A stretch of 39,577 bases of DNA from a virus (taxonomy: Duplodnaviria > Heunggongvirae > Uroviricota > Caudoviricetes): the IMG/VR virus record IMGVR_UViG_2529292882_000015; one strand, given 5' to 3'. Positions 1,772-33,433 of the stretch are shown here, piece by piece. The notes beneath the pieces were generated by a model. The model ran no database searches. It was not told the origin of the DNA and was given only the letters and a program-made list of their open reading frames with translations. A program made the position numbers and the translations under genes. How positions within the stretch are numbered: position 1 is the stretch's first letter; every line of letters begins with the position of its first letter.

Positions 1772-2397
1772 ACCGCCAGCACCTTACTGGCAGTGATGTA
1801 ACGCGCGCGCCGGTCGTCGATGCCGTTCCTGCCACCATTGATAATCAGAGTTACACGTACAATATCTCCGGAATACTTCATGCAGCCTTTGCTGGAGAAA
1901 AACCACGCCGCGCTACGAGCCGCATATTCGTCCTGCGCCAGCAGTTCAGGATTCTCCATCAGGTCCACTTTCAGGCCGTTTCCGCAGTCACGATAGTTAT
2001 TCAAACCGGTAATCTGGATAAGTCCGCGCCCACGGTAATTCCATCCATCGCCTGGGGCATTGTTACCCATGCGTTTGCTGTACACCAGATTTGCGATCGC
2101 GCGCTGGCGCTCGAGTGGCAATGGTGGTTCACCAGCACGGCGACCCAGTGCGTTGGCCTGTCCCTGAGTGAGACGTCCTGCCCGAACAAAGTTAGCCAGT
2201 CCTGTGACGCTGTAGTTGAAATTCTCCTGCAACCTGGTGAAGCCACCAGACTCATGCCCGACTTGAGCAATAAACATTGCCTGATCTTCTGCTTTGCTGA
2301 TACCAAACTCTTTCATTGCAGAAGTTATATGCGAGAACCAGCGAGCGGCCAGCGCCTCGCTAATACCAGCAGCTCGCTGGAATTGTTTAATGTCCAT
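1768..2397 (-). CDS. Endolysin, glycoside hydrolase family 19 (chitinase-like) type
   Basis: GH19 signature-like motifs (FIAQVGHESGGF; NYRGRGLIQITGLNNY); RBS GAGG 7 nt upstream; sits between holin-like genes and Rz. Confidence 0.8.
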   Translation of the reverse strand: MDIKQFQRAAGISEALAARWFSHITSAMKEFGISKAEDQAMFIAQVGHESGGFTRLQENFNYSVTGLANFVRAGRLTQGQANALGRRAGEPPLPLERQRAIANLVYSKRMGNNAPGDGWNYRGRGLIQITGLNNYRDCGNGLKVDLMENPELLAQDEYAARSAAWFFSSKGCMKYSGDIVRVTLIINGGRNGIDDRRARYITASKVLAV

Positions 2398-2680
2398 GCT
2401 GAGACCTCGTTATCTTGAAAATTTGCACCACGTTCCCTTTTGTCTTGATAAGGGCTGCCAGGAACACGGCTTTGATGATGATTTCTGACCAATCTGCGCA
2501 TATGTAATGCCCGTAAAAAGTACGAATAGGCACGCTGGCAGCAGAGACAATAAGAAGGTAAGCCAGCCACCCGCCCCACCAGCGATGGCGTGACCCGCCA
2601 CGACGGAACAGCAGGACTCTGATTGCAATTCCGCCGCAGATTGCGGCGTTCAGGATGAGAAGTAGCTCAGGACTGGCCAT
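2387..2680 (-). CDS. Small membrane protein, possible second holin or antiholin
   Basis: About 98 aa from the ATG at 2680 (MASPELLLILNAAICGGIAIRVLLF...), 2-3 predicted TM helices, RBS GGAG 8 nt upstream; overlaps the holin end and endolysin start. Confidence 0.4.
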   Translation of the reverse strand: MASPELLLILNAAICGGIAIRVLLFRRGGSRHRWWGGWLAYLLIVSAASVPIRTFYGHYICADWSEIIIKAVFLAALIKTKGNVVQIFKITRSQHGH

Positions 2681-3083
2681 CGTCTTTTCTCCCCGGGATA
2701 AGGTCGCGCGGATTTTCAGAGCTGTGATACAGCCAGATACCAATGCGGACAGCAACGATTGCTGATACGAAAGCACCGGCAGAAAACACAATGCCCTTCT
2801 CAAAAGAATCCTGCGTGATCGTTGGTATAAGGCTGGCAACACCGATGAGAATTGATGCTGTCGCTTTGTAGAAGAGAACTCCGCAGAGGAAGCTGAGAAT
2901 AGCCAGGATCAGCCGCCGTTTTATTGGGTACTCAACTGCCGAGGTAACAAAAATTACCGCACCAGCAAGAGCACCTAACGCTACTTCTGGAGGAACCCCG
3001 GCAACAACGGAAGCCAGCGCACCAAGGCTAAGCCCCTGATTAAGTGACTCCGTTGTCAGCGTGGTTGCCATAGTGACCACCAT
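2667..3083 (-). CDS. Holin-like multi-TM membrane protein
   Basis: 138 aa with several hydrophobic helices and a charged C-terminal tail (RKDDGQS); immediately upstream of the endolysin. Exact start uncertain (3083 or 3071). Confidence 0.5.
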   Translation of the reverse strand: MVVTMATTLTTESLNQGLSLGALASVVAGVPPEVALGALAGAVIFVTSAVEYPIKRRLILAILSFLCGVLFYKATASILIGVASLIPTITQDSFEKGIVFSAGAFVSAIVAVRIGIWLYHSSENPRDLIPGRKDDGQS

Positions 3084-3185: not shown

Positions 3186-5588
3186 TCACGCCCATGTCGC
3201 ATCTATGTAGAACGTTGGAGATGTAGTTGTGGACCCTTCAATCGATATTTGTCCTGTTGAAGCATTAATGGTGGCCATTGCCATGCCAAATGAAACGCCA
3301 TCAGCAGTGAACGGTACAGGGACATTTTTGGTTACTTTTGGCCTGCACCACCTCGGAAGCGTTAGAACAGTATTGCCATTCGCAAATGAAGTGGCTGCCA
3401 GTTTAATATTAATTGAATTGGCAGTTAAACTTGACGGTGCCTGTACTGTTACGTTTGTTCCAGCCCACCATTGAACAGCTGCTCTTGGCGTGTAATCAAC
3501 ACGCGACCACCAGTCGATAATGGCAGAGCAGATAATTTCCGCATACAGACGATACCCTAACTGGCTTTGGTGAATGTCATCACGCAGAAGTGGGTCGTAT
3601 TGCGTGTTGAAATATTCTGGATATGGGGCCGGGAGCTGGTGAGTTGTTGTTACACAAATGACGTTATTGCCATATTTCATCATCTGGCGTTTACCAGCTT
3701 CTCGCAACTCTGCGACACCGTCGTAGTTAGAAGATGGCTGGCCAGCCCCTCCAATAAATGACTGGCTATACCACATCCACGGCTCAACCCAAACAGGGAT
3801 ACGACCAAGGCCATTGCAATATAAGACAAACTCATCTATCAGTGCCGCCATATAATCGCCGTTTTGGTTTGCCTGCCCTTCGTTAGTTCCGGCAACCATA
3901 ATAACGATGTAAGCATCACCCGGCCCCTGAGCCTTCAGGAGATCTAACTGTTGCCTCATTGTCTGTCCGGCAACCGCCTTGTTTACAATGCTATATGAAC
4001 GGTGGCCGTTCGCTCCATCCATTAATTGCGGAATGTACGAGCTGAACGCTGAAATGAAATCCTCAGCTGTACTATCACCATGGATAAGGATATGAAGTGG
4101 AGGCTTACAGTGCACACCATTATCAGAGGTGTAGCTGCATAATCCAGTTACACGCGCAGCACCTCCAGATGCCGGGGTCATTGCAACGAACCCAACTTCG
4201 TATACATCCCCTACAGCAGAAGTATCAAATGGTAAGCGTATTCCAACGCCATTCATTGTTATCTGCGCCCAGTTTTTACCTTGCAGTGATACGCCAACGG
4301 TTGCTTTACCCGGGGCGTACGACAGTAAACCTCCTGGCAGCGGGAATGGAGTTCCTTCTGCTACTGGACCACCAATTGGTTTCTGTCTATAAGACCACTG
4401 TGTAGCACCTGGTGCCCCATAGAACATCATCCAACCACCAGAGCATCGCAGAACAATCCCAACTTCTGAGGCGGCCTGAGATTCCATACGAATATGTGCA
4501 GAAATATGCTCTCCAATATCTATTGGTGCGAACAGGCCTGTTGTACGGTCAGTAGTTAAGGGGAAGATAGCTGCGCTATCTGAGGATATGGTGACTTCAC
4601 CTTCATAGAAGAACGTGTCACCATTTATGGAATAAACTTTACAATCTGACCATTCCACTCGCTTCATGCGAATAGGGTTTCGGTTGAGTATGGCCTGCTT
4701 AGCCAGGTAATCCACTTCTCCACCGGTTGTTGTGAAATTAAGATGGGAAAACTCAAAAGTGCATTCACCTTCAAACTTCAGCGACTTATAAAGCGAGTAA
4801 AGATCGCTGTCGAATTTAAGAATGACGTTTTTATCAACGATTACACGGGAGTTTTGCAGATTTCCTGCCTGTGAGGCCGTTCCTGGTATTGTATAAGTTT
4901 TCTTTGTTGCAGAGTGGCAAGGGAAATAAACATAGCCATAGAGATTTACACTCTCCACCCATGCTGCAACAACGTTTGATTGATTGTAAGATGGCATAAC
5001 GGTGATTGGTATCGGCTCAAATTTATCCACGCCACCGATCTTTTTCCATCCGTCAGGCTGAGCAAGAAGAATCAGCACTTCACTGGCAGAAGCACTCGGA
5101 GGGAGAATGGCTATAGGCTGCCCACTGTCATCCCAGCCAAAAATCATATTCCGGCGACTTGATACCTTTGGCACCAGGTTTACACTGTTTTCAGGAACCC
5201 TAAGCGTATTTCTCTGAAGAGCACCGATGTTGAACATCGCATGCTGAATAAGCATGGTCAGGTAGTCGAATGCATCCTCATGGACCTCTGCAAAAAATTT
5301 CCCCTGATTTCTTAAATCAGTTTCCTGCACTGCTGGAAGGTTACGAGTGATTGATATTGTAATGCCTGGCAAAACAGGAGATGACGTAATAACGCTTCCA
5401 CCGGAAGATAAGCCAGCACCTGTAACCATGTAATCTGTCCCCAGGATCATTGGAGAAACAAGACCGTCAGCGGTTATTGTGCTTACATCAAGATCTGTGT
5501 CTTTAAAAATTCTGAAAGTATATGGGAATGATGTCGTGACTCCATTCCCGAGATACTCATTGTGGCTGATTTCGGTTGAGACTGTCAT
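3186..5588 (-). CDS. Tailspike/tail fiber with T7 gp17-like N-terminal adaptor domain and SGNH (GDSL) esterase domain
   Basis: N-terminus MTVSTEISHNEYLGNGVTTSFPYTFRIF resembles the conserved N-terminal domain of T7-type tail fibres; C-terminal third carries SGNH blocks (ILIHGDSTAEDF; VAGTNEG; DDIH); RBS GGAG 7 nt upstream. Confidence 0.8.
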   Translation of the reverse strand: MTVSTEISHNEYLGNGVTTSFPYTFRIFKDTDLDVSTITADGLVSPMILGTDYMVTGAGLSSGGSVITSSPVLPGITISITRNLPAVQETDLRNQGKFFAEVHEDAFDYLTMLIQHAMFNIGALQRNTLRVPENSVNLVPKVSSRRNMIFGWDDSGQPIAILPPSASASEVLILLAQPDGWKKIGGVDKFEPIPITVMPSYNQSNVVAAWVESVNLYGYVYFPCHSATKKTYTIPGTASQAGNLQNSRVIVDKNVILKFDSDLYSLYKSLKFEGECTFEFSHLNFTTTGGEVDYLAKQAILNRNPIRMKRVEWSDCKVYSINGDTFFYEGEVTISSDSAAIFPLTTDRTTGLFAPIDIGEHISAHIRMESQAASEVGIVLRCSGGWMMFYGAPGATQWSYRQKPIGGPVAEGTPFPLPGGLLSYAPGKATVGVSLQGKNWAQITMNGVGIRLPFDTSAVGDVYEVGFVAMTPASGGAARVTGLCSYTSDNGVHCKPPLHILIHGDSTAEDFISAFSSYIPQLMDGANGHRSYSIVNKAVAGQTMRQQLDLLKAQGPGDAYIVIMVAGTNEGQANQNGDYMAALIDEFVLYCNGLGRIPVWVEPWMWYSQSFIGGAGQPSSNYDGVAELREAGKRQMMKYGNNVICVTTTHQLPAPYPEYFNTQYDPLLRDDIHQSQLGYRLYAEIICSAIIDWWSRVDYTPRAAVQWWAGTNVTVQAPSSLTANSINIKLAATSFANGNTVLTLPRWCRPKVTKNVPVPFTADGVSFGMAMATINASTGQISIEGSTTTSPTFYIDATWA

Positions 5589-5692: not shown

Positions 5693-5707
5693 TTACCTTT
5701 CAGGTGA
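5693..5707. promoter_or_regulatory. Operator-like palindrome TTACC-N5-GGTGA (site 1 of 13)
   Basis: TTACCTTTCAGGTGA, in the divergent region between the tailspike start and the LexA-box promoter. Confidence 0.5.
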
Positions 5708-5744: not shown

Positions 5745-5764
5745 TACTGTATAAATATACAGTT
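5745..5764 (+). promoter_or_regulatory. LexA (SOS) box overlapping a promoter-like region
   Basis: TACTGTATAAATATACAGTT matches the consensus TACTGTATATATATACAGTA at 18 of 20 positions with the CTGT-N8-ACAG core; preceded by TTGATA (-35-like); 20 bp upstream of the ATG at 5784. Confidence 0.7.
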
Positions 5765-5783
5765 ATTGCATGGAGAAGATAAG

Positions 5784-6041
5784 ATGCAGCAGTATCACTA
5801 TCCACTGGAAGACGGATTTACCGAAAGGATTCACACGCCGGGAGGCGTCAGGTCACTGGTGGAGAGATCGCACTTGATGAAATTACTCCGGGATCTCGAT
5901 AAGGATGGATTTAATGTCGATGGCCCACTTGCCGAACTGACTGCACTGATTAACTACGTCACCAGCTCACAGATGTCTATGCAGGATCTGCAAACACATC
6001 TCGACTATTGTGCCGAACAATTACGAAAACAAACCAGATAA
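5784..6041 (+). CDS. Small SOS-regulated antirepressor-like protein (paralog of the antirepressor C-terminal domain)
   Basis: 85 aa from the ATG at 5784 with RBS GGAGAAG; clearly similar to the C-terminal ~70 aa of the downstream antirepressor (...LMKLLRDLDKDGFNVDGPLAELTALINY...DLQTHLDY vs ...LMNLLNRLQEDGHDVSGAAAELTTIFCY...DIQTHAEY). Confidence 0.6.
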   Translation: MQQYHYPLEDGFTERIHTPGGVRSLVERSHLMKLLRDLDKDGFNVDGPLAELTALINYVTSSQMSMQDLQTHLDYCAEQLRKQTR

Positions 6042-6072
6042 GGTTTGTAATTACCAAGTGGAGTGCTTATAT

Positions 6073-6087
6073 TTACCTTTGCGGTAA
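6073..6087. promoter_or_regulatory. Operator-like palindrome TTACC-N5-GGTAA (site 2 of 13)
   Basis: TTACCTTTGCGGTAA, in the intergenic region between the small antirepressor-like gene and ant. Confidence 0.5.
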
Positions 6088-6354
6088 ATTTACATCGCAC
6101 TCCTCTTGTGCCATAGTAGTCGGGCACTGGCAAAATCCAGTGCCGGGATTGGCGTCCCGGGTTACTACAGAGGCACATATGCCGCATAAGCGGTTTTTTT
6201 TATGTGTAAAGCGCACCTATTCTATGGTGGGCTGTGTGGGGGCACCGAAAGGTGCGCCGGGTCCTTTGTAGCCGGTTACGCCAACCCTGCACAGTTCACC
6301 ACCAACCGATTGGCGTCGGTAGTGGTGATTAACCTAACTACAAAGGTGATCACT

Positions 6355-7041
6355 ATGACTGCTAACGTAACCCCATCTGTTTTTCATTTTGAATCAGAAG
6401 CAACCATTCGAGCCATTGTTATTGATGGAAATCCTTGGTTTGTTGCCAAAGACGTTATTAAAGCTCTTCAACTGACAAACCCCACTATGTCAATAAAATC
6501 TCTTGATGATGATGAAAGGGCTAAATTTAACTTAGGCCGTCAAGGCGAAACCAATATTATCAACGAGTCAGGCCTCTACACACTGATCCTCCGCTGCCGC
6601 GATGCGGTGACACCAGGCACTATCCCCTACCGCTTTCGTAAATGGGTTACAGGTGAGGTTCTTCCTCAGATCCGCCGCACCGGAAGTTACATTAAAAACT
6701 CGCTCCCGCAGGAAGAACGCATAAAGATGGTTGCCGACCAGGTAGCCAACGCCACAGCATCAGCAGTGATGCAGGCAATGAAGATAGAGAACAAAACCTA
6801 CAGCGCCCCACTGAAGCCCGGCTACCGCAGTCTGATTCATTCTCCGTCTGGTGTTCTCGGCTTGACGGAGAACTCACTGCTGATGAATCTGCTGAACCGG
6901 TTACAGGAAGACGGGCACGACGTATCGGGCGCGGCGGCGGAGCTGACCACCATATTCTGCTACATCGTCGGTGTGAGCAAATGCCTGCGTGATATCCAGA
7001 CACACGCGGAGTACATCAACGACAAGGCAGGGTTCTTCTGA
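6355..7041 (+). CDS. ant: Antirepressor, Bro-N domain family
   Basis: Bro-N-like N-terminus (ATIRAIVIDGNPWFVAKDVIKALQLTNPTMSIKSLDDDERAK); RBS AAGGTGA upstream of the ATG at 6355; sits beside the tailspike gene as in P22 immI. Confidence 0.75.
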   Translation: MTANVTPSVFHFESEATIRAIVIDGNPWFVAKDVIKALQLTNPTMSIKSLDDDERAKFNLGRQGETNIINESGLYTLILRCRDAVTPGTIPYRFRKWVTGEVLPQIRRTGSYIKNSLPQEERIKMVADQVANATASAVMQAMKIENKTYSAPLKPGYRSLIHSPSGVLGLTENSLLMNLLNRLQEDGHDVSGAAAELTTIFCYIVGVSKCLRDIQTHAEYINDKAGFF

Positions 7042-7107: not shown

Positions 7108-7122
7108 TTACCTCACGGGTGA
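7108..7122. promoter_or_regulatory. Operator-like palindrome TTACC-N5-GGTGA (site 3 of 13)
   Basis: TTACCTCACGGGTGA, upstream of the leader mini-ORF and terminator that precede the 7252 gene. Confidence 0.5.
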
Positions 7123-7211
7123 TCCATAGCGATTAGGCACCGATACAGGAGGAGCCCACATGAGAAAATTTGACGAGTACGAAGGCGTTTAACATTCGGA
7201 TAGTTTAATGA

Positions 7212-7234
7212 CGGGGCCATTAGGCCCCGTTTTC
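7212..7234 (+). terminator. Rho-independent terminator/attenuator hairpin in the leader of the 7252 gene
   Basis: GGGGCC-ATTA-GGCCCC followed by GTTTTC; about 20 nt downstream of a 10-codon mini-ORF (7160-7192) that has a strong AGGAGG RBS. Confidence 0.45.
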
Positions 7235-7251
7235 ATGTCTGGAGACAGTTT

Positions 7252-7791
7252 GTGTTAAGTGAAGAAATGCAATTTGCCATGGCTGTAGCTCAAATCGTAA
7301 GTGCAGTCGCGGTTTCGCTTGGCTTGTTCATAGCTATCGCTACTATTATTTATAATGTAAATACAGCGAGAAAAGTACACACTTCAGTATTCCTTGGTGA
7401 AAGCAGGTTTGATGTAGATTATAAGAAAGGCCTATCTACTATGCGCCGCATTCACGAATCGAACAAATCATTCCGCTCTTATATGTATCCAAGCAATGGG
7501 CAGGCTGATCTTACGGATGAAGAAAAGACAGAGAAGAGAGAAATAATTTACTGCCTAGGTTTCTACGAACGCATGGCTGTGAGCGTGAAGCGGAAAACTT
7601 ATGATGAGACCATGATTAAGGAAGTATTTTACAGCTCCGTTGTAAATAACTATCAGATTGCGCTACCTCTTATACAAGCCATTAGAGAAAAAGAAAACAT
7701 AAACACATATTTTAAAGAATATGAATGGTTGGCCACACGATGGAAGGATTGTCCATTGAAGGATAAATCCCCGTGGTACAAGTTTTGGTAA
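7252..7791 (+). CDS. Membrane-anchored protein, candidate superinfection-exclusion/abortive-infection moron
   Basis: GTG start with RBS GGAG; N-terminal TM helix (AMAVAQIVSAVAVSLGLFIAIATIIY) then a soluble domain; AT-rich coding sequence unlike neighbours; plus strand inside the minus-strand late region, at the position sieA occupies in P22. Confidence 0.6.
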   Translation: MLSEEMQFAMAVAQIVSAVAVSLGLFIAIATIIYNVNTARKVHTSVFLGESRFDVDYKKGLSTMRRIHESNKSFRSYMYPSNGQADLTDEEKTEKREIIYCLGFYERMAVSVKRKTYDETMIKEVFYSSVVNNYQIALPLIQAIREKENINTYFKEYEWLATRWKDCPLKDKSPWYKFW

Positions 7792-7813
7792 GCCCGCGTT
7801 GCGGGCTTTTTTA
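7790..7813 (+). terminator. Rho-independent terminator after the 7252 gene
   Basis: AGCCCGC-GTT-GCGGGCT followed by TTTTTT, directly after the stop codon. Confidence 0.6.
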
Positions 7814-7884
7814 TGGACGAAACAAAAGTTAGTGCTACACTCATTGACGCCACATTGAGGTGGCTTATAGATGGAAATTTCACA

Positions 7885-8046
7885 ATGAAAAAAGCATTTG
7901 CTGCACTGTTCGTTTTGTTGTCTCTGGTAGCTTCAACTCAGGCCTTTGCCGGTAGTTGTCAGCACGACAGCGACACTGCTGCTGACGGCTCCCGCTGCGG
8001 TGGGCGTTCTGCGGATTCCCGCCCTGGCGGCGGTGGTATTCGTTAA
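7885..8046 (+). CDS. Small secreted Cys-containing peptide (about 54 aa)
   Basis: Signal peptide MKKAFAALFVLLSLVASTQAFA, then a Gly/Ser/Asp-rich mature peptide with two Cys. RBS is weak, so the call is tentative. Confidence 0.4.
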   Translation: MKKAFAALFVLLSLVASTQAFAGSCQHDSDTAADGSRCGGRSADSRPGGGGIR

Positions 8047-8069: not shown

Positions 8070-8081
8070 GTGACATGTCAC
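8070..8081. repeat. 12-bp perfect palindrome GTGACATGTCAC (copy 1 of 3)
   Basis: Exact palindrome; the TGA stop of the minus-strand gene 8078-8374 lies within it; adjacent to the 8043-8068 terminator. Confidence 0.7.
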
Positions 8082-8374
8082 GTTCCTTTTCTGAATGATA
8101 GCCGTTCGAAAAATGATGACATTCCACCGCAGACAATAGCAAAGATGATCCCACCAAAGAAGAGAAGGCCAGCCTGCCACCACTCCCACCGCCATACATC
8201 CACAGCGCCAACCATACCAACAATCGCTCCAACAAATGGAATATAGCTCACGATGAAAGCAATGGGGGCTGCAATTATCCAGTGCAATCCCCACCATGAT
8301 TCAAGCCCAGCCATAATTGCTGCCAACTGAAAAAGACCAACGACGATATAAACAATGAATCCTATAGCTTGCAT
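8078..8374 (-). CDS. Small Trp-rich multi-TM membrane protein
   Basis: 98 aa, about three TM helices, RBS AGGTGA; follows the last large ejection-protein gene. Confidence 0.5.
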   Translation of the reverse strand: MQAIGFIVYIVVGLFQLAAIMAGLESWWGLHWIIAAPIAFIVSYIPFVGAIVGMVGAVDVWRWEWWQAGLLFFGGIIFAIVCGGMSSFFERLSFRKGT

Positions 8375-8386
8375 GTAGTCACCTAT

Positions 8387-8560
8387 TTACCCAGTAAAAA
8401 TCAGAGGCCTCCCCTCAATAAGGCTTGCAACAAGAACTATTCCCTGTACAACAAAGATGAACCAGCAAATAGCTTGAGTCTGAGGGTTAAGAAAATATTT
8501 GTAGCGGTCAATAAATAACAACCCACCAGAAATTATCACACTCAAAATAATTAAAAACAC
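8387..8560 (-). CDS. Small hydrophobic membrane peptide (57 aa), not in the supplied ORF track
   Basis: GTG start with RBS AGGAAG; translation VFLIILSVIISGGLLFIDRYKYFLNPQTQAICWFIFVVQGIVLVASLIEGRPLIFTG, read by hand from the minus strand. Confidence 0.3.
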   Translation of the reverse strand: MFLIILSVIISGGLLFIDRYKYFLNPQTQAICWFIFVVQGIVLVASLIEGRPLIFTG

Positions 8561-20604: not shown

Positions 20605-20655
20605 CTTCTTTCTCCATTAGTGGGTCTGTTACGACCCACAGGTTAATAACAGGCG

Positions 20656-25167: not shown

Positions 25168-25183
25168 CTGTAAACCAGTACAG
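25168..25183 (+). promoter_or_regulatory. Weak LexA-like box (CTGT-N8-ACAG) upstream of the moron gene
   Basis: CTGTAAACCAGTACAG has the right half-site spacing, but the centre is not AT-rich. Confidence 0.3.
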
Positions 25184-32463: not shown

Positions 32464-32694
32464 TCATGAGTAGAAGAAGTATGCCAGTTCTGCTTTTGAG
32501 CGCAGCCATTGTCTTGTTTTACAGGCTTTAAAAAGCCCATTCATCAATACTTTACCTGGCATTTTGCGCTTACCTGTTAAGTGAGTCTGGATATAGTGAC
32601 TCGTCGTTCCGGCTTCCTGTGCGAAGGCTTCACGCTCATCCGGAGTAAGTGCAAGCCAGTGCTTTTTGAAATCGAAATGTCCGTTATCGCTCAT
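32464..32694 (-). CDS. Cro-like early regulator (putative DNA-binding)
   Basis: 76-aa protein transcribed divergently from the repressor gene across the operator cluster; a TTGTTA-N17-TATTAT promoter overlaps operator site 9. Confidence 0.5.
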   Translation of the reverse strand: MSDNGHFDFKKHWLALTPDEREAFAQEAGTTSHYIQTHLTGKRKMPGKVLMNGLFKACKTRQWLRSKAELAYFFYS

Positions 32695-32730: not shown

Positions 32731-32745
32731 TCACCCATAAGGTAA
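32731..32745. promoter_or_regulatory. OR-type operator site (site 9 of 13)
   Basis: TCACCCATAAGGTAA; overlaps the spacer of the minus-strand TTGTTA-N17-TATTAT promoter for the cro-like gene. Confidence 0.55.
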
Positions 32746-32761
32746 CAAAAATCAAGGATAG

Positions 32762-32776
32762 TTACCTATGGGGTGC
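32762..32776. promoter_or_regulatory. OR-type operator site (site 10 of 13)
   Basis: TTACCTATGGGGTGC. Confidence 0.55.
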
Positions 32777-32848: not shown

Positions 32849-33433
32849 ATGAAAAGTATCCAGGACGTCCGCAGGCAAAATCTCAACGACTTGATCGACC
32901 GTGAATTCAATGGTGTTCAGACGCGGATGGCAGAAAAACTTGGAACTCAGGCAAATCTGGTAAACCGCTGGGCTCTTGGCAAGAAGGTTATCGGCGACCA
33001 GGTTGCGCGAAAAATTGAAGCTGCCGCCAATAAACCCCGTAACTGGCTTGATATCGATCGCTCGCTTTCTCAGGAAGGTTTTCAGCCTGTCGGACCGAGC
33101 GACATTGGTCAGCTGGCGGCTCACAACCTGGAACGCTGGATGAGCGAAAGCCGCGACCTTTCAACGCAGGGAAAACTTCACCGCGCATCCGGCGTCGCCC
33201 AGGTGACAATCAGCCGCCTGTTAAACAATGAGGTCAGCGTTTCCATTTCCACCCTGGAGAATGTTGCATCCGCATTCGGGCGTCACGGCTATGAATTACT
33301 GATTCACCCGCACGACCCTGCGACTATCAACTATGACCGCTCGCGCTACGCTTTGTTACCCGAAACCGAGAAAGCAAAGATCGAAAGTTACATTGAATTT
33401 GTCATCAACCAGAACGAAAAAAACAAACAATAA
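32849..33433 (+). CDS. Prophage repressor candidate with two Xre-type HTH domains and no peptidase domain
   Basis: Two HTH-like segments (QTRMAEKLGTQANLVNRWALGKK and LHRASGVAQVTISRLLNNEVSVSISTLENVASAFG); divergent from the cro-like gene across three operators; followed by a terminator and the pL-like promoter; no S24/LexA-like C-terminal domain. Confidence 0.6.
   Translation: MKSIQDVRRQNLNDLIDREFNGVQTRMAEKLGTQANLVNRWALGKKVIGDQVARKIEAAANKPRNWLDIDRSLSQEGFQPVGPSDIGQLAAHNLERWMSESRDLSTQGKLHRASGVAQVTISRLLNNEVSVSISTLENVASAFGRHGYELLIHPHDPATINYDRSRYALLPETEKAKIESYIEFVINQNEKNKQ

What the first reader, a model, noticed from the sequence alone, without database searches (positions are those of the whole stretch)
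5745..6041. Near-consensus LexA box in front of a mini-antirepressor gene that is a paralog of the Ant C-terminal domain
TACTGTATAAATATACAGTT sits 20 bp upstream of an 85-aa ORF whose sequence aligns with the C-terminal ~70 residues of the downstream Bro-N antirepressor. The repressor candidate (32849-33433) has no autocleavage domain, so SOS induction through a LexA-controlled antirepressor is the likely switch. The unusual part is that the SOS-controlled unit is only the C-terminal module, with the full antirepressor downstream behind a terminator.
Basis: partly seen in the sequence, partly recalled or inferred. Interest (0 to 1): 0.75.

Follow-up and report, generated by a model that had tools for sequence, protein, structure and literature searches.

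The report
SOS-controlled phage antirepressor, already known type
This is the E. coli-phage version of a published DNA-damage switch, in which host LexA holds back a small protein that disables the phage repressor. It sits next to a second, RNA-controlled antirepressor that reuses the same repressor-binding module, so the core is ordinary and only the tandem arrangement is mildly new.

Summary
TACTGTATAAATATACAGTT (5745-5764) is a near-consensus LexA box 19 nt upstream of an 85-aa gene (5784-6041). That protein aligns at 40% identity (E 1e-19) with the C-terminus of the downstream Bro-N protein (6355-7041).

The window is a phiV10/epsilon15-like podophage (Uetakevirus). The 85-aa protein is not a truncated module. 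It is the orthologue (88% identity) of Ant of Salmonella phage SPC32H, and the 32849-33433 protein is the orthologue of its repressor Rep. The two were crystallised together (PDB 5D50). The box is conserved in position across the genus. SPC32N differs from SPC32H by ACAG>AAAG in exactly this box. The SOS switch is therefore already known.

- The 'terminator' belongs to an IsrK-like RNA (6124-6200) with its own promoter.
- A C4-type antisense RNA (6220-6306) follows it. Its loops pair with the Shine-Dalgarno of the Bro-N gene, with compensatory changes across seven phages.
- The Ant-like domain is a portable module, found standalone or fused to Bro-N, AntA or Rha heads.

SPC32H and epsilon15 lack this second unit, and phiV10 has it frameshifted.

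Verdict: a new member of a known kind. The possible coupling of the two antirepressors is modestly interesting and untested.

The parts
5693..5707 (.). Repressor-operator-like palindrome TTACCTTTCAGGTGA, between the tailspike gene and ant
   Evidence: TTACC-N5-GGTRA occurs at 12 sites against 0.08 matches expected. The same position in epsilon15 is annotated 'protein_bind repressor'. It is conserved in SPC32H, phiV10 and ZX5.
5745..5764 (.). LexA (SOS) box TACTGTATAAATATACAGTT
   Evidence: It is positionally conserved in SPC32H, epsilon15, phiV10, ZX5 and Tyrion, with conserved arms and a variable spacer. It is present in 77 of 80 close IMG/VR loci. SPC32N differs from SPC32H by ACAG>AAAG in this box.
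5784..6041 (+). ant: 85-aa antirepressor, orthologue of SPC32H Ant
   Evidence: PDB 5D50 chain E 'Anti-repressor protein', E 5e-47, 88% identity. Family phrog_450. It has no Pfam family.
6073..6087 (.). Operator-like palindrome TTACCTTTGCGGTAA abutting the -35 of the IsrK promoter
   Evidence: It is conserved at the same distance from IsrK in ZX5, phiV10 and Tyrion, and absent in Stx phage PA28 and APSE-7.
6089..6117 (+). Sigma-70-like promoter for the IsrK-like RNA (TTTACA-17-CATAGT, TG-extended)
   Evidence: The -10 and -35 hexamers are conserved in position in six phages, including Stx PA28 and APSE-7. The spacing to the first position of the Rfam IsrK model (6124) fits a transcription start there.
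6124..6200 (+). IsrK-like RNA (leader/decoy) carrying a1 (UUGGCGU, 6149-6155) and b1 (CUACAGAGG, 6165-6173), ending in the intrinsic terminator at 6181-6200
   Evidence: Rfam isrK 74.7 bits (gathering score 50). Rfam c4-a1b1 45.2 bits (gathering score 46.7) at 6111-6163. Terminator. Complementarity to C4.
6220..6306 (+). C4-type antisense RNA with loops b' (CCUUUGUAG, 6263-6271) and a' (ACGCCAA, 6278-6284)
   Evidence: Rfam C4 79.5 bits (gathering score 45). The fold and complementarities are. a' and b' co-vary with their targets in seven phages.
6310..6346 (+). C4 targets a2 (UUGGCGU, 6310-6316) and b2 (CUACAAAGG, 6338-6346); b2 overlaps the Shine-Dalgarno AAAGGUGA (6342-6349) of the Bro-N gene
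   Evidence: Exact complementarity. Compensatory changes in Tyrion, APSE-7, L087, phiV10/ZX5 and PA28.
6355..7041 (+). Second antirepressor: Bro-N domain (aa 18-104, nt 6406-6666) fused to an Ant-like domain (aa 147-224, nt 6793-7026)
   Evidence: Pfam Bro-N E 5e-20. C-terminus against 5D50_E gives E 2e-13, against Ant E 1e-19, and against phrog_450 E 5e-35. Overexpressing the ZX5 orthologue (98% identical C-terminal domain) lowers the lysogen count 1000-fold (PMC9782041).
32731..32793 (.). Immunity-region operators (TTACC-N5-GGTRA at 32731 and 32779, imperfect copy at 32762) between the cro-like gene (32464-32694, minus strand) and rep
   Evidence: The same motif flanks rep in SPC32H.
32849..33433 (+). 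rep: non-cleavable two-HTH repressor, orthologue of SPC32H Rep
   Evidence: PDB 5D50 chain A 'Repressor', E 4e-42. It is 100% identical to phiV10 and ZX5 Rep and 42% identical to SPC32H Rep. Pfam finds only HTH families and no Peptidase_S24.

Best explanation
The window is a phiV10/epsilon15-like temperate podophage (Uetakevirus). The finding is its copy of the SPC32H-type SOS antirepression switch.

Proposed mechanism for the first unit:
- In the lysogen, host LexA sits on the box at 5745-5764 and keeps ant (5784-6041) silent.
- DNA damage leads to RecA-stimulated LexA self-cleavage, so ant is transcribed.
- The 85-aa Ant, a tetramer in SPC32H, binds Rep (32849-33433), which has no autocleavage domain.
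- Rep comes off its TTACC-N5-GGTAA operators, which are scattered through the genome, and lytic genes switch on.

Immediately downstream sits a second, separately controlled antirepressor unit of the P1 immI / Gifsy-1 isrK-anrP type:
- Its own promoter (6089-6117) is flanked by a Rep-operator-like site.
- That promoter makes an IsrK-like leader RNA (6124-6200), which mostly stops at the terminator.
- Read-through yields a C4-type antisense RNA (6220-6306) and the mRNA of a Bro-N::Ant-like fusion protein (6355-7041).
- The C4 loops pair with a2 and b2, and b2 covers the Shine-Dalgarno of the fusion gene. Translation is therefore blocked unless excess IsrK/a1b1 RNA titrates C4.
- The C-terminal domain of the fusion is an old paralogue of Ant and is most likely its repressor-binding module.

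Basis of each step:
- Shown here by sequence: the orthology, the conservation of the box, the RNA family matches and the covarying complementarity.
- Shown by others: LexA control and Rep inactivation in SPC32H, and a pro-lytic effect of the ZX5 Bro-N protein.
- Inferred: that these hold in this phage, that the fusion binds the same Rep, and any coupling between the two units.
For: - Ant matches PDB 5D50_E at E 5e-47 with 88% identity.
- Rep matches 5D50_A at E 4e-42 and has no S24 domain.
- Gene order (tailspike, LexA box, ant) is identical to SPC32H, epsilon15, phiV10 and ZX5.
- The LexA box is aligned and conserved, with a variable spacer, and is kept in 77 of 80 close loci.
- The SPC32H and SPC32N records differ by ACAG>AAAG in the box. 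This matches the published explanation of SPC32N's constitutively lytic phenotype (Kim & Ryu 2013, J Virol 87:11775; recalled from memory, the paper was not held).
- Reviews confirm LexA-controlled Ant inactivating the repressor (PMC7380047) and tetrameric Ant breaking the Rep tetramer (PMC9638917).
- RNA unit: Rfam isrK and C4 hits above gathering score; exact b'/b2 pairing over the Shine-Dalgarno; compensatory a'/a1/a2 and b'/b1/b2 changes in seven phages; a conserved IsrK promoter; and the Gifsy-1 mechanism (PMC4825925).
- ZX5 has an identical Rep. Overexpressing its Bro-N protein lowered lysogens from 1e9 to 1e6 (PMC9782041).
Against: - Nothing was measured for this phage. LexA binding, Ant-Rep binding and C4 action are all by homology.
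- Rep is only 42% identical to SPC32H Rep (C-terminal domain 37%) while Ant is 88% identical. The interface cannot be assumed identical.
- The exact ant promoter hexamers could not be assigned with confidence.
- The c4-a1b1 Rfam hit is just below its gathering score (45.2 against 46.7).
- The ZX5 overexpression used a GST-fusion system and is indirect evidence.
- In Gifsy-1 the RNA region is also translated (orf45) and coupled to the antirepressor. Whether a peptide is made here is unknown, and the frame is not conserved between this window and ZX5.
Confidence: 0.82

Rival explanations
1. The Bro-N protein is the 'full' principal antirepressor. The 85-aa gene is a detached C-terminal module that alone was put under SOS control, as an unusual split design.
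For: The small protein aligns only with the C-terminal ~78 residues of the larger one. The larger one carries the widely annotated Bro-N 'antirepressor' head.
Against: - SPC32H and epsilon15 have only the small gene, and in SPC32H it is the working antirepressor.
- phiV10 carries the Bro-N gene frameshifted into p23 plus p22.
- In the 1.84-billion-protein representative search, most clusters of the domain are standalone 82-98-aa proteins.
- The fused forms carry interchangeable heads: Bro-N, AntA or Rha.
- The two copies share no DNA similarity.
Confidence: 0.07
2. The Bro-N::Ant-like protein does not serve induction of its own prophage. It may be an anti-immunity or cross-talk factor. In that reading it is made by a superinfecting phage unless a resident prophage supplies matching C4 RNA, as in P1/P7 immI. 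Alternatively it is aimed at the diverged Rep of heteroimmune relatives, as with Gifsy and Fels antirepressors.
For: - Its Ant-like domain is only 40% identical to Ant.
- The control module is the P1 immI type.
- The a'/b' sequences differ between phages like immunity specificities.
- Lemire et al. show trans-acting antirepressors, including one under repressor rather than LexA control (PMC3121763).
- The unit is dispensable in SPC32H, epsilon15 and phiV10.
Against: The ZX5 orthologue, overexpressed, shifts ZX5 itself away from lysogeny, and ZX5 Rep is identical to the Rep here. An operator-like site at its promoter suggests control by the phage's own Rep. This reading is not exclusive of the best explanation.
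Confidence: 0.3
3. The fusion protein modulates Ant rather than Rep. Because Ant works as a tetramer, a paralogous domain could co-assemble with Ant and tune or poison it, acting as a brake or timer.
For: The two share a fold family with 14 invariant positions. Ant is tetrameric in SPC32H.
Against: There is no direct evidence. Overexpressing the ZX5 orthologue promotes the lytic outcome rather than protecting lysogeny.
Confidence: 0.08
4. The LexA-like palindrome is a chance or non-functional sequence, and ant is controlled otherwise, for example only by Rep through the upstream operator.
For: An operator-like site lies about 38 bp upstream of the box. Klebsiella relatives and locus L089 have ATGT instead of CTGT in one arm.
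Against: There were no matches at 3 or fewer mismatches in shuffles. The arms are conserved with a varying spacer across E. coli, Salmonella and Enterobacter phages. The natural SPC32N point mutation lies in this box.
Confidence: 0.03

Closest known systems
SPC32H Rep-Ant-LexA antirepression switch (Kim & Ryu 2013, J Virol 87:11775; Kim et al. 2016, PNAS 113:E2480; PDB 5D50, 5D4Z)
   Same: - Orthologous Ant (88% identity) and orthologous Rep (42% identity).
- Same phage genus and same gene position next to the tailspike gene.
- LexA box at the aligned position.
- Same operator motif TTACC-N5-GGTAA.
   Different: SPC32H has a terminator straight after ant, with no IsrK/C4 RNAs and no Bro-N::Ant-like gene. 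Rep here belongs to a different immunity type, identical to phiV10 and ZX5.
Gifsy-1 isrK-orf45-anrP locus (Hershko-Shalev et al. 2016, PMC4825925)
   Same: An IsrK RNA with its own promoter and a leaky terminator is followed by a structured RNA region and a Bro-N-type antirepressor. Translation of that antirepressor depends on RNA-RNA interplay with IsrK.
   Different: - Here the unit lies directly behind a LexA-controlled ant gene and carries a Rep-operator-like site at its promoter.
- The antirepressor's C-terminal domain is Ant-like.
- The coupling ORF is not conserved in frame.
- No AntQ link is evident.
P1/P7 immI operon (c4 antisense RNA - icd - ant; Citron & Schuster 1990, own knowledge and as cited)
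   Same: A C4 RNA is co-transcribed with its target. Its a' and b' loops pair with a2 and b2, and b2 covers a ribosome-binding site. There are a1/b1 copies upstream. The promoter is under the phage's main repressor.
   Different: b2 covers the Shine-Dalgarno of the antirepressor gene itself rather than of icd. The proteins are unrelated to P1 Ant1/2. The same module upstream of a Bro-N gene was already noted in APSE phages (PMC7313666).
LexA-controlled small antirepressors Tum (phage 186), AntC (N15), and GfoA/GftA/GfhA (Gifsy) (Shearwin 1998; Lemire 2011, PMC3121763)
   Same: Same logic: a non-cleavable repressor, with an antirepressor gene outside the immunity region under a LexA box.
   Different: No sequence relationship was detected here, but it was not tested directly. 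The Kim & Ryu abstract (from memory) calls Ant structurally distinct from these. Gifsy antirepressors form A2B2 complexes, whereas Ant acts as a tetramer on two Rep dimers.

Membership tests
SPC32H-type Ant (phrog_450) | ~86-aa protein homologous over its full length to the crystallised Ant (5D50 chain E) | tested here: met
   E 5e-47, residues 2-84 against 3-85, 88% identity. phrog_450 E 1e-47.
SPC32H-type Ant (phrog_450) | LexA box immediately upstream of, or overlapping, the ant promoter | tested here: met
   The box at 5745-5764 aligns column for column with the SPC32H box. It is the site of the SPC32N mutation. Statistics.
SPC32H-type Ant (phrog_450) | Cognate repressor of the Rep type (two HTH-like domains, no RecA-dependent autocleavage domain) | tested here: met
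   Rep against 5D50_A gives E 4e-42 over 1-190. Pfam finds HTH_3 and related families only, with no Peptidase_S24.
SPC32H-type Ant (phrog_450) | LexA binds the box; Ant binds Rep and releases it from DNA | not testable with these tools
   Needs EMSA or footprinting and pull-down. Known only for SPC32H.
C4 antisense RNA / immI-type control (Rfam RF01695, clan CL00128) | Match to the covariance model above the gathering score | tested here: met
   79.5 bits against gathering score 45, full-length 1-87.
C4 antisense RNA / immI-type control (Rfam RF01695, clan CL00128) | Loops a' and b' complementary to downstream a2 and b2, with b2 over a ribosome-binding site, and to upstream a1 and b1 | tested here: met
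   - b' 6263-6271 pairs with b2 6338-6346 (9/9).
- a' 6278-6284 pairs with a2 6310-6316 and a1 6149-6155 (7/7).
- b1 6165-6173 pairs with one G-U.
- Compensatory changes occur in seven phages.
C4 antisense RNA / immI-type control (Rfam RF01695, clan CL00128) | C4 is processed from the precursor transcript and represses translation or transcription of the antirepressor | not testable with these tools
   Needs Northern blots or RNA-seq and reporter fusions.
IsrK RNA (Rfam RF01394) | Covariance-model match, own promoter, and Rho-independent terminator allowing partial read-through | tested here: met
   74.7 bits against gathering score 50. Promoter hexamers conserved in six phages. Terminator at 6181-6200. 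Read-through itself was not tested.
Bro-N antirepressors (Pfam PF02498) | Bro-N domain above the Pfam cut-off | tested here: met
   72.3 bits against cut-off 25.6, residues 18-104.
Lambda CI / LexA-type autocleavable repressors | C-terminal Peptidase_S24 domain with an Ala-Gly cleavage site | tested here: not met
   No S24 hit at E 0.1 or lower for 32849-33433. The closest solved relative is the non-cleaved SPC32H Rep.
Tum / GfoA-type LexA-controlled antirepressors | Sequence homology to Tum, GfoA, GftA or AntC | not tested
   No reference sequences were compared. The 85-aa protein gave no credible Pfam hit (only DUF724 below cut-off).

The most novel reading that the evidence does not exclude
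The two antirepressor units may form one two-stage induction circuit.
- No canonical terminator separates ant from the IsrK region, so SOS-induced ant transcripts would carry the a1/b1 decoy as a 3' extension ending at 6200.
- That RNA, plus IsrK made from its own Rep-gated promoter once Rep starts to fall, would titrate the C4 antisense RNA.
- This would unlock translation of a second antirepressor that reuses the Ant repressor-binding module on a Bro-N head.

The result would be a positive-feedback latch that commits the prophage to lysis. It could also admit SOS-independent cues, as IsrK does in Gifsy-1. The Ant fold would then be a portable repressor-binding cassette shuffled among Bro-N, AntA and Rha antirepressors.
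Probability: 0.22. Interest if true: 0.6.

Novelty: new member of a known kind. Interest (0 to 1): 0.33.

Why it matters
As an SOS switch it adds nothing new. It is the E. coli phiV10-type copy of the SPC32H mechanism.

It has practical value for annotation. At least 80% of the ant-IsrK-C4-BroN stretch is present in 234 of 5426 complete E. coli genomes. There the key antirepressor is labelled 'hypothetical protein'. PHROGs lists its family as 'unknown function', and the one experimental paper on a near-identical phage overlooked it.

The modest scientific interest lies in the tandem. The same repressor-binding module appears once under LexA and once under a C4/IsrK RNA switch with a repressor operator. 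If the two are coupled, this would be a compact model for how prophages combine SOS and RNA-based inputs and make induction irreversible. It would also show that the Ant fold is the specificity cassette of several families of 'Bro-N/AntA/Rha antirepressors'.

Tried and rejected
- **Primary papers not held.** Kim & Ryu 2013, Kim et al. 2016 and Kropinski 2007 could not be read. Their content is cited from memory and cross-checked against PDB molecule names, GenBank annotation, citing reviews and the SPC32H/SPC32N sequence difference.
- **Structure prediction unusable.** The AlphaFold2 model of the Bro-N::Ant-like protein from a 21-sequence alignment had mean pLDDT 50 and pTM 0.28. It is too poor for a fold search, so none was run. 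Homology of the C-terminal domain rests on sequence.
- **Distant family members.**
  - The alignment was too diverse to make search patterns.
  - P0170 gave nothing in genome contigs.
  - P0165 and P0159 each gave one usable locus. One has no LexA box and one has a degenerate box (ATGT...ACAG).
  - LexA control is therefore supported within Uetakevirus, not for the whole domain family.
- **Profile search contaminated.** The representative-library profile included the tail of the Bro-N domain. Many of the 671 hits are Bro-N-only matches, and only hits covering profile positions of about 68-150 were used.
- **Defence-system search.** PADLOC gave no hits for the neighbouring cargo genes or the Bro-N protein.
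- **Other LexA-like cores.** The other two CTGT-N8-ACAG sites (20626, 25168) were rejected as LexA boxes because of GC-rich spacers and, for 25168, 8 mismatches to the consensus.
- **Mistaken call.** referred to a non-existent RNA model and returned nothing.
- **Promoter not assigned.** I could not assign the ant -35/-10 hexamers convincingly from sequence.
Full report
**Observation**

The sequence TACTGTATAAATATACAGTT lies at 5745-5764. It has two mismatches to the 20-nt E. coli SOS-box consensus. It is the only site in the 39.6-kb window within three mismatches of that consensus, and none appeared in 100 dinucleotide-preserving shuffles. The core CTGT-N8-ACAG occurs three times against 0.6 expected. 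The other two sites have GC-rich spacers and were dismissed.

Nineteen nucleotides downstream, after GGAGAAG, an ATG at 5784 opens an 85-aa ORF that ends at 6041. The next gene really starts at ATG 6355 (228 aa) and has a Bro-N domain at residues 18-104. Its residues 147-224 align with the 85-aa protein at 40% identity, E 1e-19. The two share no DNA-level similarity, so the duplication is old. A hairpin followed by a T8 run lies at 6181-6200. The protein at 32849-33433 has HTH domains only and no S24 peptidase. Every factual element of the finding is confirmed.

**What the small gene is**

The window is a phiV10/epsilon15-like podophage of the genus Uetakevirus. The 85-aa protein matches one solved structure, chain E of PDB 5D50, 'Anti-repressor protein', at E 5e-47 and 88% identity. 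This is Ant of Salmonella phage SPC32H, whose GenBank record names the gene ant.

The 32849-33433 protein matches chain A of the same entry, 'Repressor', at E 4e-42 over its whole length. It is 100% identical to the repressors of phiV10 and vB_EcoP_ZX5 and 42% identical to SPC32H Rep.

From my own knowledge of Kim & Ryu 2013 (J Virol 87:11775) and Kim et al. 2016 (PNAS 113:E2480), neither of which could be opened:
- SPC32H Rep is not cleaved during the SOS response.
- Rep is inactivated by Ant, whose promoter overlaps a LexA site.
- Tetrameric Ant binds two Rep dimers and takes them off the DNA.

Held papers confirm these points in outline (PMC7380047; PMC9638917; a 2025 preprint).

**Is the LexA box functional?**

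The upstream regions of the window, SPC32H, phiV10 and ZX5 align without ambiguity. The box occupies the same columns in all four, with conserved CTGT/ACAG arms and a varying spacer:
- SPC32H: TACTGTATGTTTATACAGTG
- phiV10: TACTGTGTATTTATACAGTT

Epsilon15 and Enterobacter phage Tyrion show the same arrangement. Among 80 near-identical IMG/VR loci, 77 keep a CTG-N10-CAG box 20-21 nt from the ATG.

The deposited genomes of SPC32H and its lytic sibling SPC32N differ at two positions in the 849 bp compared. One of these turns ACAG into AAAG in exactly this box. This agrees with the published explanation of SPC32N's constitutive Ant synthesis.

Klebsiella members of the genus, and one distant homologue (locus L089), carry ATGT in place of CTGT in one arm. 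One still more distant homologue has no box. LexA control is therefore well supported within this genus, but not for every member of the protein family.

The 314-nt spacer between the two genes gives three Rfam matches:

| Rfam family | Coordinates | Bits | Gathering score |
|---|---|---|---|
| isrK | 6124-6200, including the terminator | 74.7 | 50 |
| C4 antisense RNA | 6220-6306 | 79.5 | 45 |
| c4-a1b1 | 6111-6163 | 45.2 | 46.7 (just below) |

A sigma-70-like promoter (TTTACA-17-CATAGT, 6089-6117) is correctly spaced for a start at 6124. Its hexamers are conserved in six phages, including a Stx phage and APSE-7.

The C4 loops and their targets are:
- Loop b' (CCUUUGUAG, 6263-6271) is exactly complementary to CUACAAAGG at 6338-6346. 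That target overlaps the Shine-Dalgarno AAAGGUGA of the Bro-N gene.
- Loop a' (ACGCCAA, 6278-6284) is complementary to UUGGCGU at 6310-6316 and also at 6149-6155 inside IsrK.
- IsrK also holds a b1 copy at 6165-6173, which pairs with b' through one G-U.

In Tyrion, APSE-7, an IMG/VR contig, phiV10/ZX5 and Stx phage PA28, the a' and b' sequences differ. In each case their upstream and downstream partners have changed to match. This is the P1/P7 immI design: C4 blocks a ribosome-binding site, and an a1/b1 copy lies upstream. It is also the Gifsy-1 isrK-orf45-anrP design, in which short IsrK activates translation of a Bro-N-type antirepressor from a read-through transcript (PMC4825925). The pairing of C4 and IsrK upstream of a Bro-N gene has also been noted in APSE phages (PMC7313666).

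**The Ant-like domain is a portable module**

The small-protein family has no Pfam entry and is 'unknown function' in PHROGs (phrog_450). A profile search of 1.84 billion representative proteins found only a few dozen clusters that cover the domain. Most are standalone proteins of 82-98 aa. The rest carry it at the C-terminus behind Bro-N, AntA, Rha, or Bro-N plus ORF6C heads.

Fourteen positions are invariant across small and fused forms. Of the 80 close loci:
- 58 have isrK, C4, a Bro-N head and the Ant-like domain downstream of ant.
- 10 have the same RNAs and Ant-like domain but a different head.
- 5 have ant alone.

SPC32H and epsilon15 have ant alone, followed by a terminator. In phiV10 the Bro-N gene is split by a frameshift inside the Ant-like domain. 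The small protein is therefore the canonical antirepressor and the fusion is an accessory, not the reverse.

The fusion is nevertheless probably active. In ZX5, whose Rep is identical to the one here and whose fusion C-domain is 98% identical, overexpressing it lowered lysogen counts from 1e9 to 1e6 and lowered repressor transcripts (PMC9782041). That paper does not mention LexA, SPC32H or the small gene.

**Repressor operators**

The palindrome TTACC-N5-GGTRA occurs at 12 intergenic sites in the window, with 19 strand matches against 0.08 expected. These include three in the cro-rep spacer, counting one imperfect copy, and two after rep. One lies at 5693-5707, upstream of the LexA box. One lies at 6073-6087, abutting the -35 of the IsrK promoter. 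One lies at 7108-7122.

The same motif flanks rep in SPC32H. The epsilon15 GenBank record annotates seven dispersed 'repressor' binding sites, one at the position equivalent to 5693. The site next to the IsrK promoter is conserved in Uetakeviruses but absent from the same RNA module in Stx and APSE phages. This suggests that the imported module was placed under Rep control, as the P1 immI operon is under C1.

**Most likely mechanism**

Shown by homology and conservation: LexA represses ant. SOS relieves this repression. Ant then neutralises the non-cleavable Rep, and the operators open.

Inferred from RNA complementarity and covariation: the Bro-N::Ant-like gene is translationally locked by C4 and unlocked by excess IsrK/a1b1 RNA.

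Speculative: the two units may be coupled. The ant-IsrK spacer has only a hairpin without a U tract (6060-6103, -22.7 kcal/mol). SOS-induced ant transcripts should therefore run into the a1/b1 region and end at 6200, adding decoy RNA. Loss of Rep would also open the IsrK promoter. Together these would give a feed-forward latch. I put about 0.2 on this.

Alternatives are that the fusion serves superinfection or cross-talk with heteroimmune relatives, or that it modulates Ant itself.

One fact is unexplained. Ant is 88% identical between this phage and SPC32H, whereas Rep is 42% identical, 49% in its N-terminal domain and 37% in its C-terminal domain. From memory of the 2016 paper, the C-terminal domain is the part that Ant binds.

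**Comparison and novelty**

The LexA-Ant-Rep switch is a member of a published, structurally solved system. All sequence-testable defining features are met. The IsrK/C4-antirepressor module is likewise a known kind.

What I did not find described is that the C-terminal domain of these Bro-N, AntA and Rha antirepressors is homologous to SPC32H Ant. I also did not find described that a LexA-controlled and an RNA-controlled copy sit in tandem. Gifsy-1 offers a partial precedent. It has both a LexA-controlled small antirepressor (GfoA) and the IsrK-controlled AnrP, though at separate loci, and these have not been reported as paralogues.

At least 80% of this stretch is present in 234 of 5426 complete E. 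coli genomes, with the small gene labelled 'hypothetical protein'.

I rate the finding a new member of a known kind, of low-to-moderate interest.

**What did not work**

- The AlphaFold2 model of the fusion protein was too poor for a fold search (mean pLDDT 50).
- Searches for distant loci mostly failed.
- PADLOC found nothing in neighbouring cargo genes.
- The ant promoter hexamers could not be assigned with confidence.

Noticed in passing
window 5693, 6073, 7108, 24639, 27783, 30386, 30448, 32731, 32779 (plus imperfect 32762), 33491, 33553: A 15-bp palindrome TTACC-N5-GGTRA occurs at 12 intergenic sites, with 19 strand matches against 0.08 expected. It is presumably the Rep operator, dispersed through the genome as in P1. 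The epsilon15 GenBank record already annotates seven such 'repressor' sites, and SPC32H has the same motif around rep.
   Followed up: partly
window 5784-6041 versus 32849-33433: Conservation is asymmetric. Ant is 88% identical to SPC32H Ant, but Rep is only 42% identical (N-terminal domain 49%, C-terminal domain 37%). Either Ant recognises a small conserved patch or it is broadly cross-reactive among heteroimmune Uetakeviruses. This is unexplained.
   Followed up: partly
L001 (phiV10) 2341-3020: In phiV10 the Bro-N::Ant-like gene is broken by a frameshift inside the Ant-like domain. It is annotated as p23 (194 aa) plus p22 (29 aa), so the second antirepressor is dispensable for a viable temperate phage.
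   Followed up: yes
IMG/VR loci L007-L086; proteins P0121, P0123, P0138, P0152, P0158: At the same locus in near-identical prophages, the head of the second antirepressor is swapped (Bro-N, AntA or Rha). The IsrK/C4 RNAs and the Ant-like C-terminal domain stay constant. Ten of 80 loci lack the Bro-N head but keep the Ant-like domain.
   Followed up: partly
window 6202-6354; L003 (ZX5) 2955-3068: An ATG at 6202 opens a frame that runs through the C4 RNA in frame into the Bro-N gene (279-aa mechanical ORF). In ZX5 the same region is annotated as a 37-aa 'ash family protein'. These look like translations of the C4 RNA. Their relation to Gifsy-1 orf45, which is translated and coupled to anrP, is open, and an indel in the b' loop shifts the frame between this window and ZX5.
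   Followed up: partly
L090 and L091 (Klebsiella Uetakeviruses) about 30 bp upstream of ant; L089 about 25 bp upstream of its Ant homologue: The LexA box has ATGT instead of CTGT in one arm (for example ATATGTATATATATACAGTA). This may be a weaker box, which could mean leakier Ant and higher spontaneous induction.
   Followed up: no
window 7108-7791: After the Bro-N gene come several features in order:
- another operator-like site (7108-7122);
- a 10-codon mini-ORF (7161-7193);
- a hairpin with a T run (~7211-7233);
- a 179-aa DUF4760 protein with an N-terminal membrane helix (7252-7791; Pfam E 8e-31, phrog_2284).
This looks like moron-type cargo. It gave no PADLOC hit and is absent from SPC32H at this position.
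   Followed up: partly
window 7813-8046 (+), 8078-8374 (-), 8387-8560 (-): Three small predicted secreted or membrane proteins without family hits lie between the cargo gene and the 824-aa internal/injection protein gene. SPC32H has a single 46-aa membrane protein here.
   Followed up: no
window 3186-5588 (-): The 800-aa tailspike/tail fibre has a weak GDSL/SGNH esterase-like region (residues 504-681, E 1e-3, below the Pfam cut-off). The Klebsiella relative's counterpart is annotated as a GDSL-type esterase. This suggests an O-antigen deacetylase-type receptor-destroying activity.
   Followed up: no
window 25168-25183 and 20626-20641: Two further CTGT-N8-ACAG cores were found. The one at 25168 lies about 70 bp upstream of a 118-aa gene (25250) but has 8 mismatches to the 20-nt SOS consensus. 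The one at 20626 lies in a 51-nt gap between two capsid-region genes. Both have GC-rich spacers and are probably chance or hairpin elements.
   Followed up: partly
E. coli genome search; PHROGs phrog_450: The antirepressor proven in SPC32H is still labelled 'hypothetical protein' in RefSeq E. coli genomes and 'unknown function' in PHROGs. The ZX5 paper treats the Bro-N protein as the phage's only antirepressor. This is an annotation gap worth fixing.
   Followed up: yes
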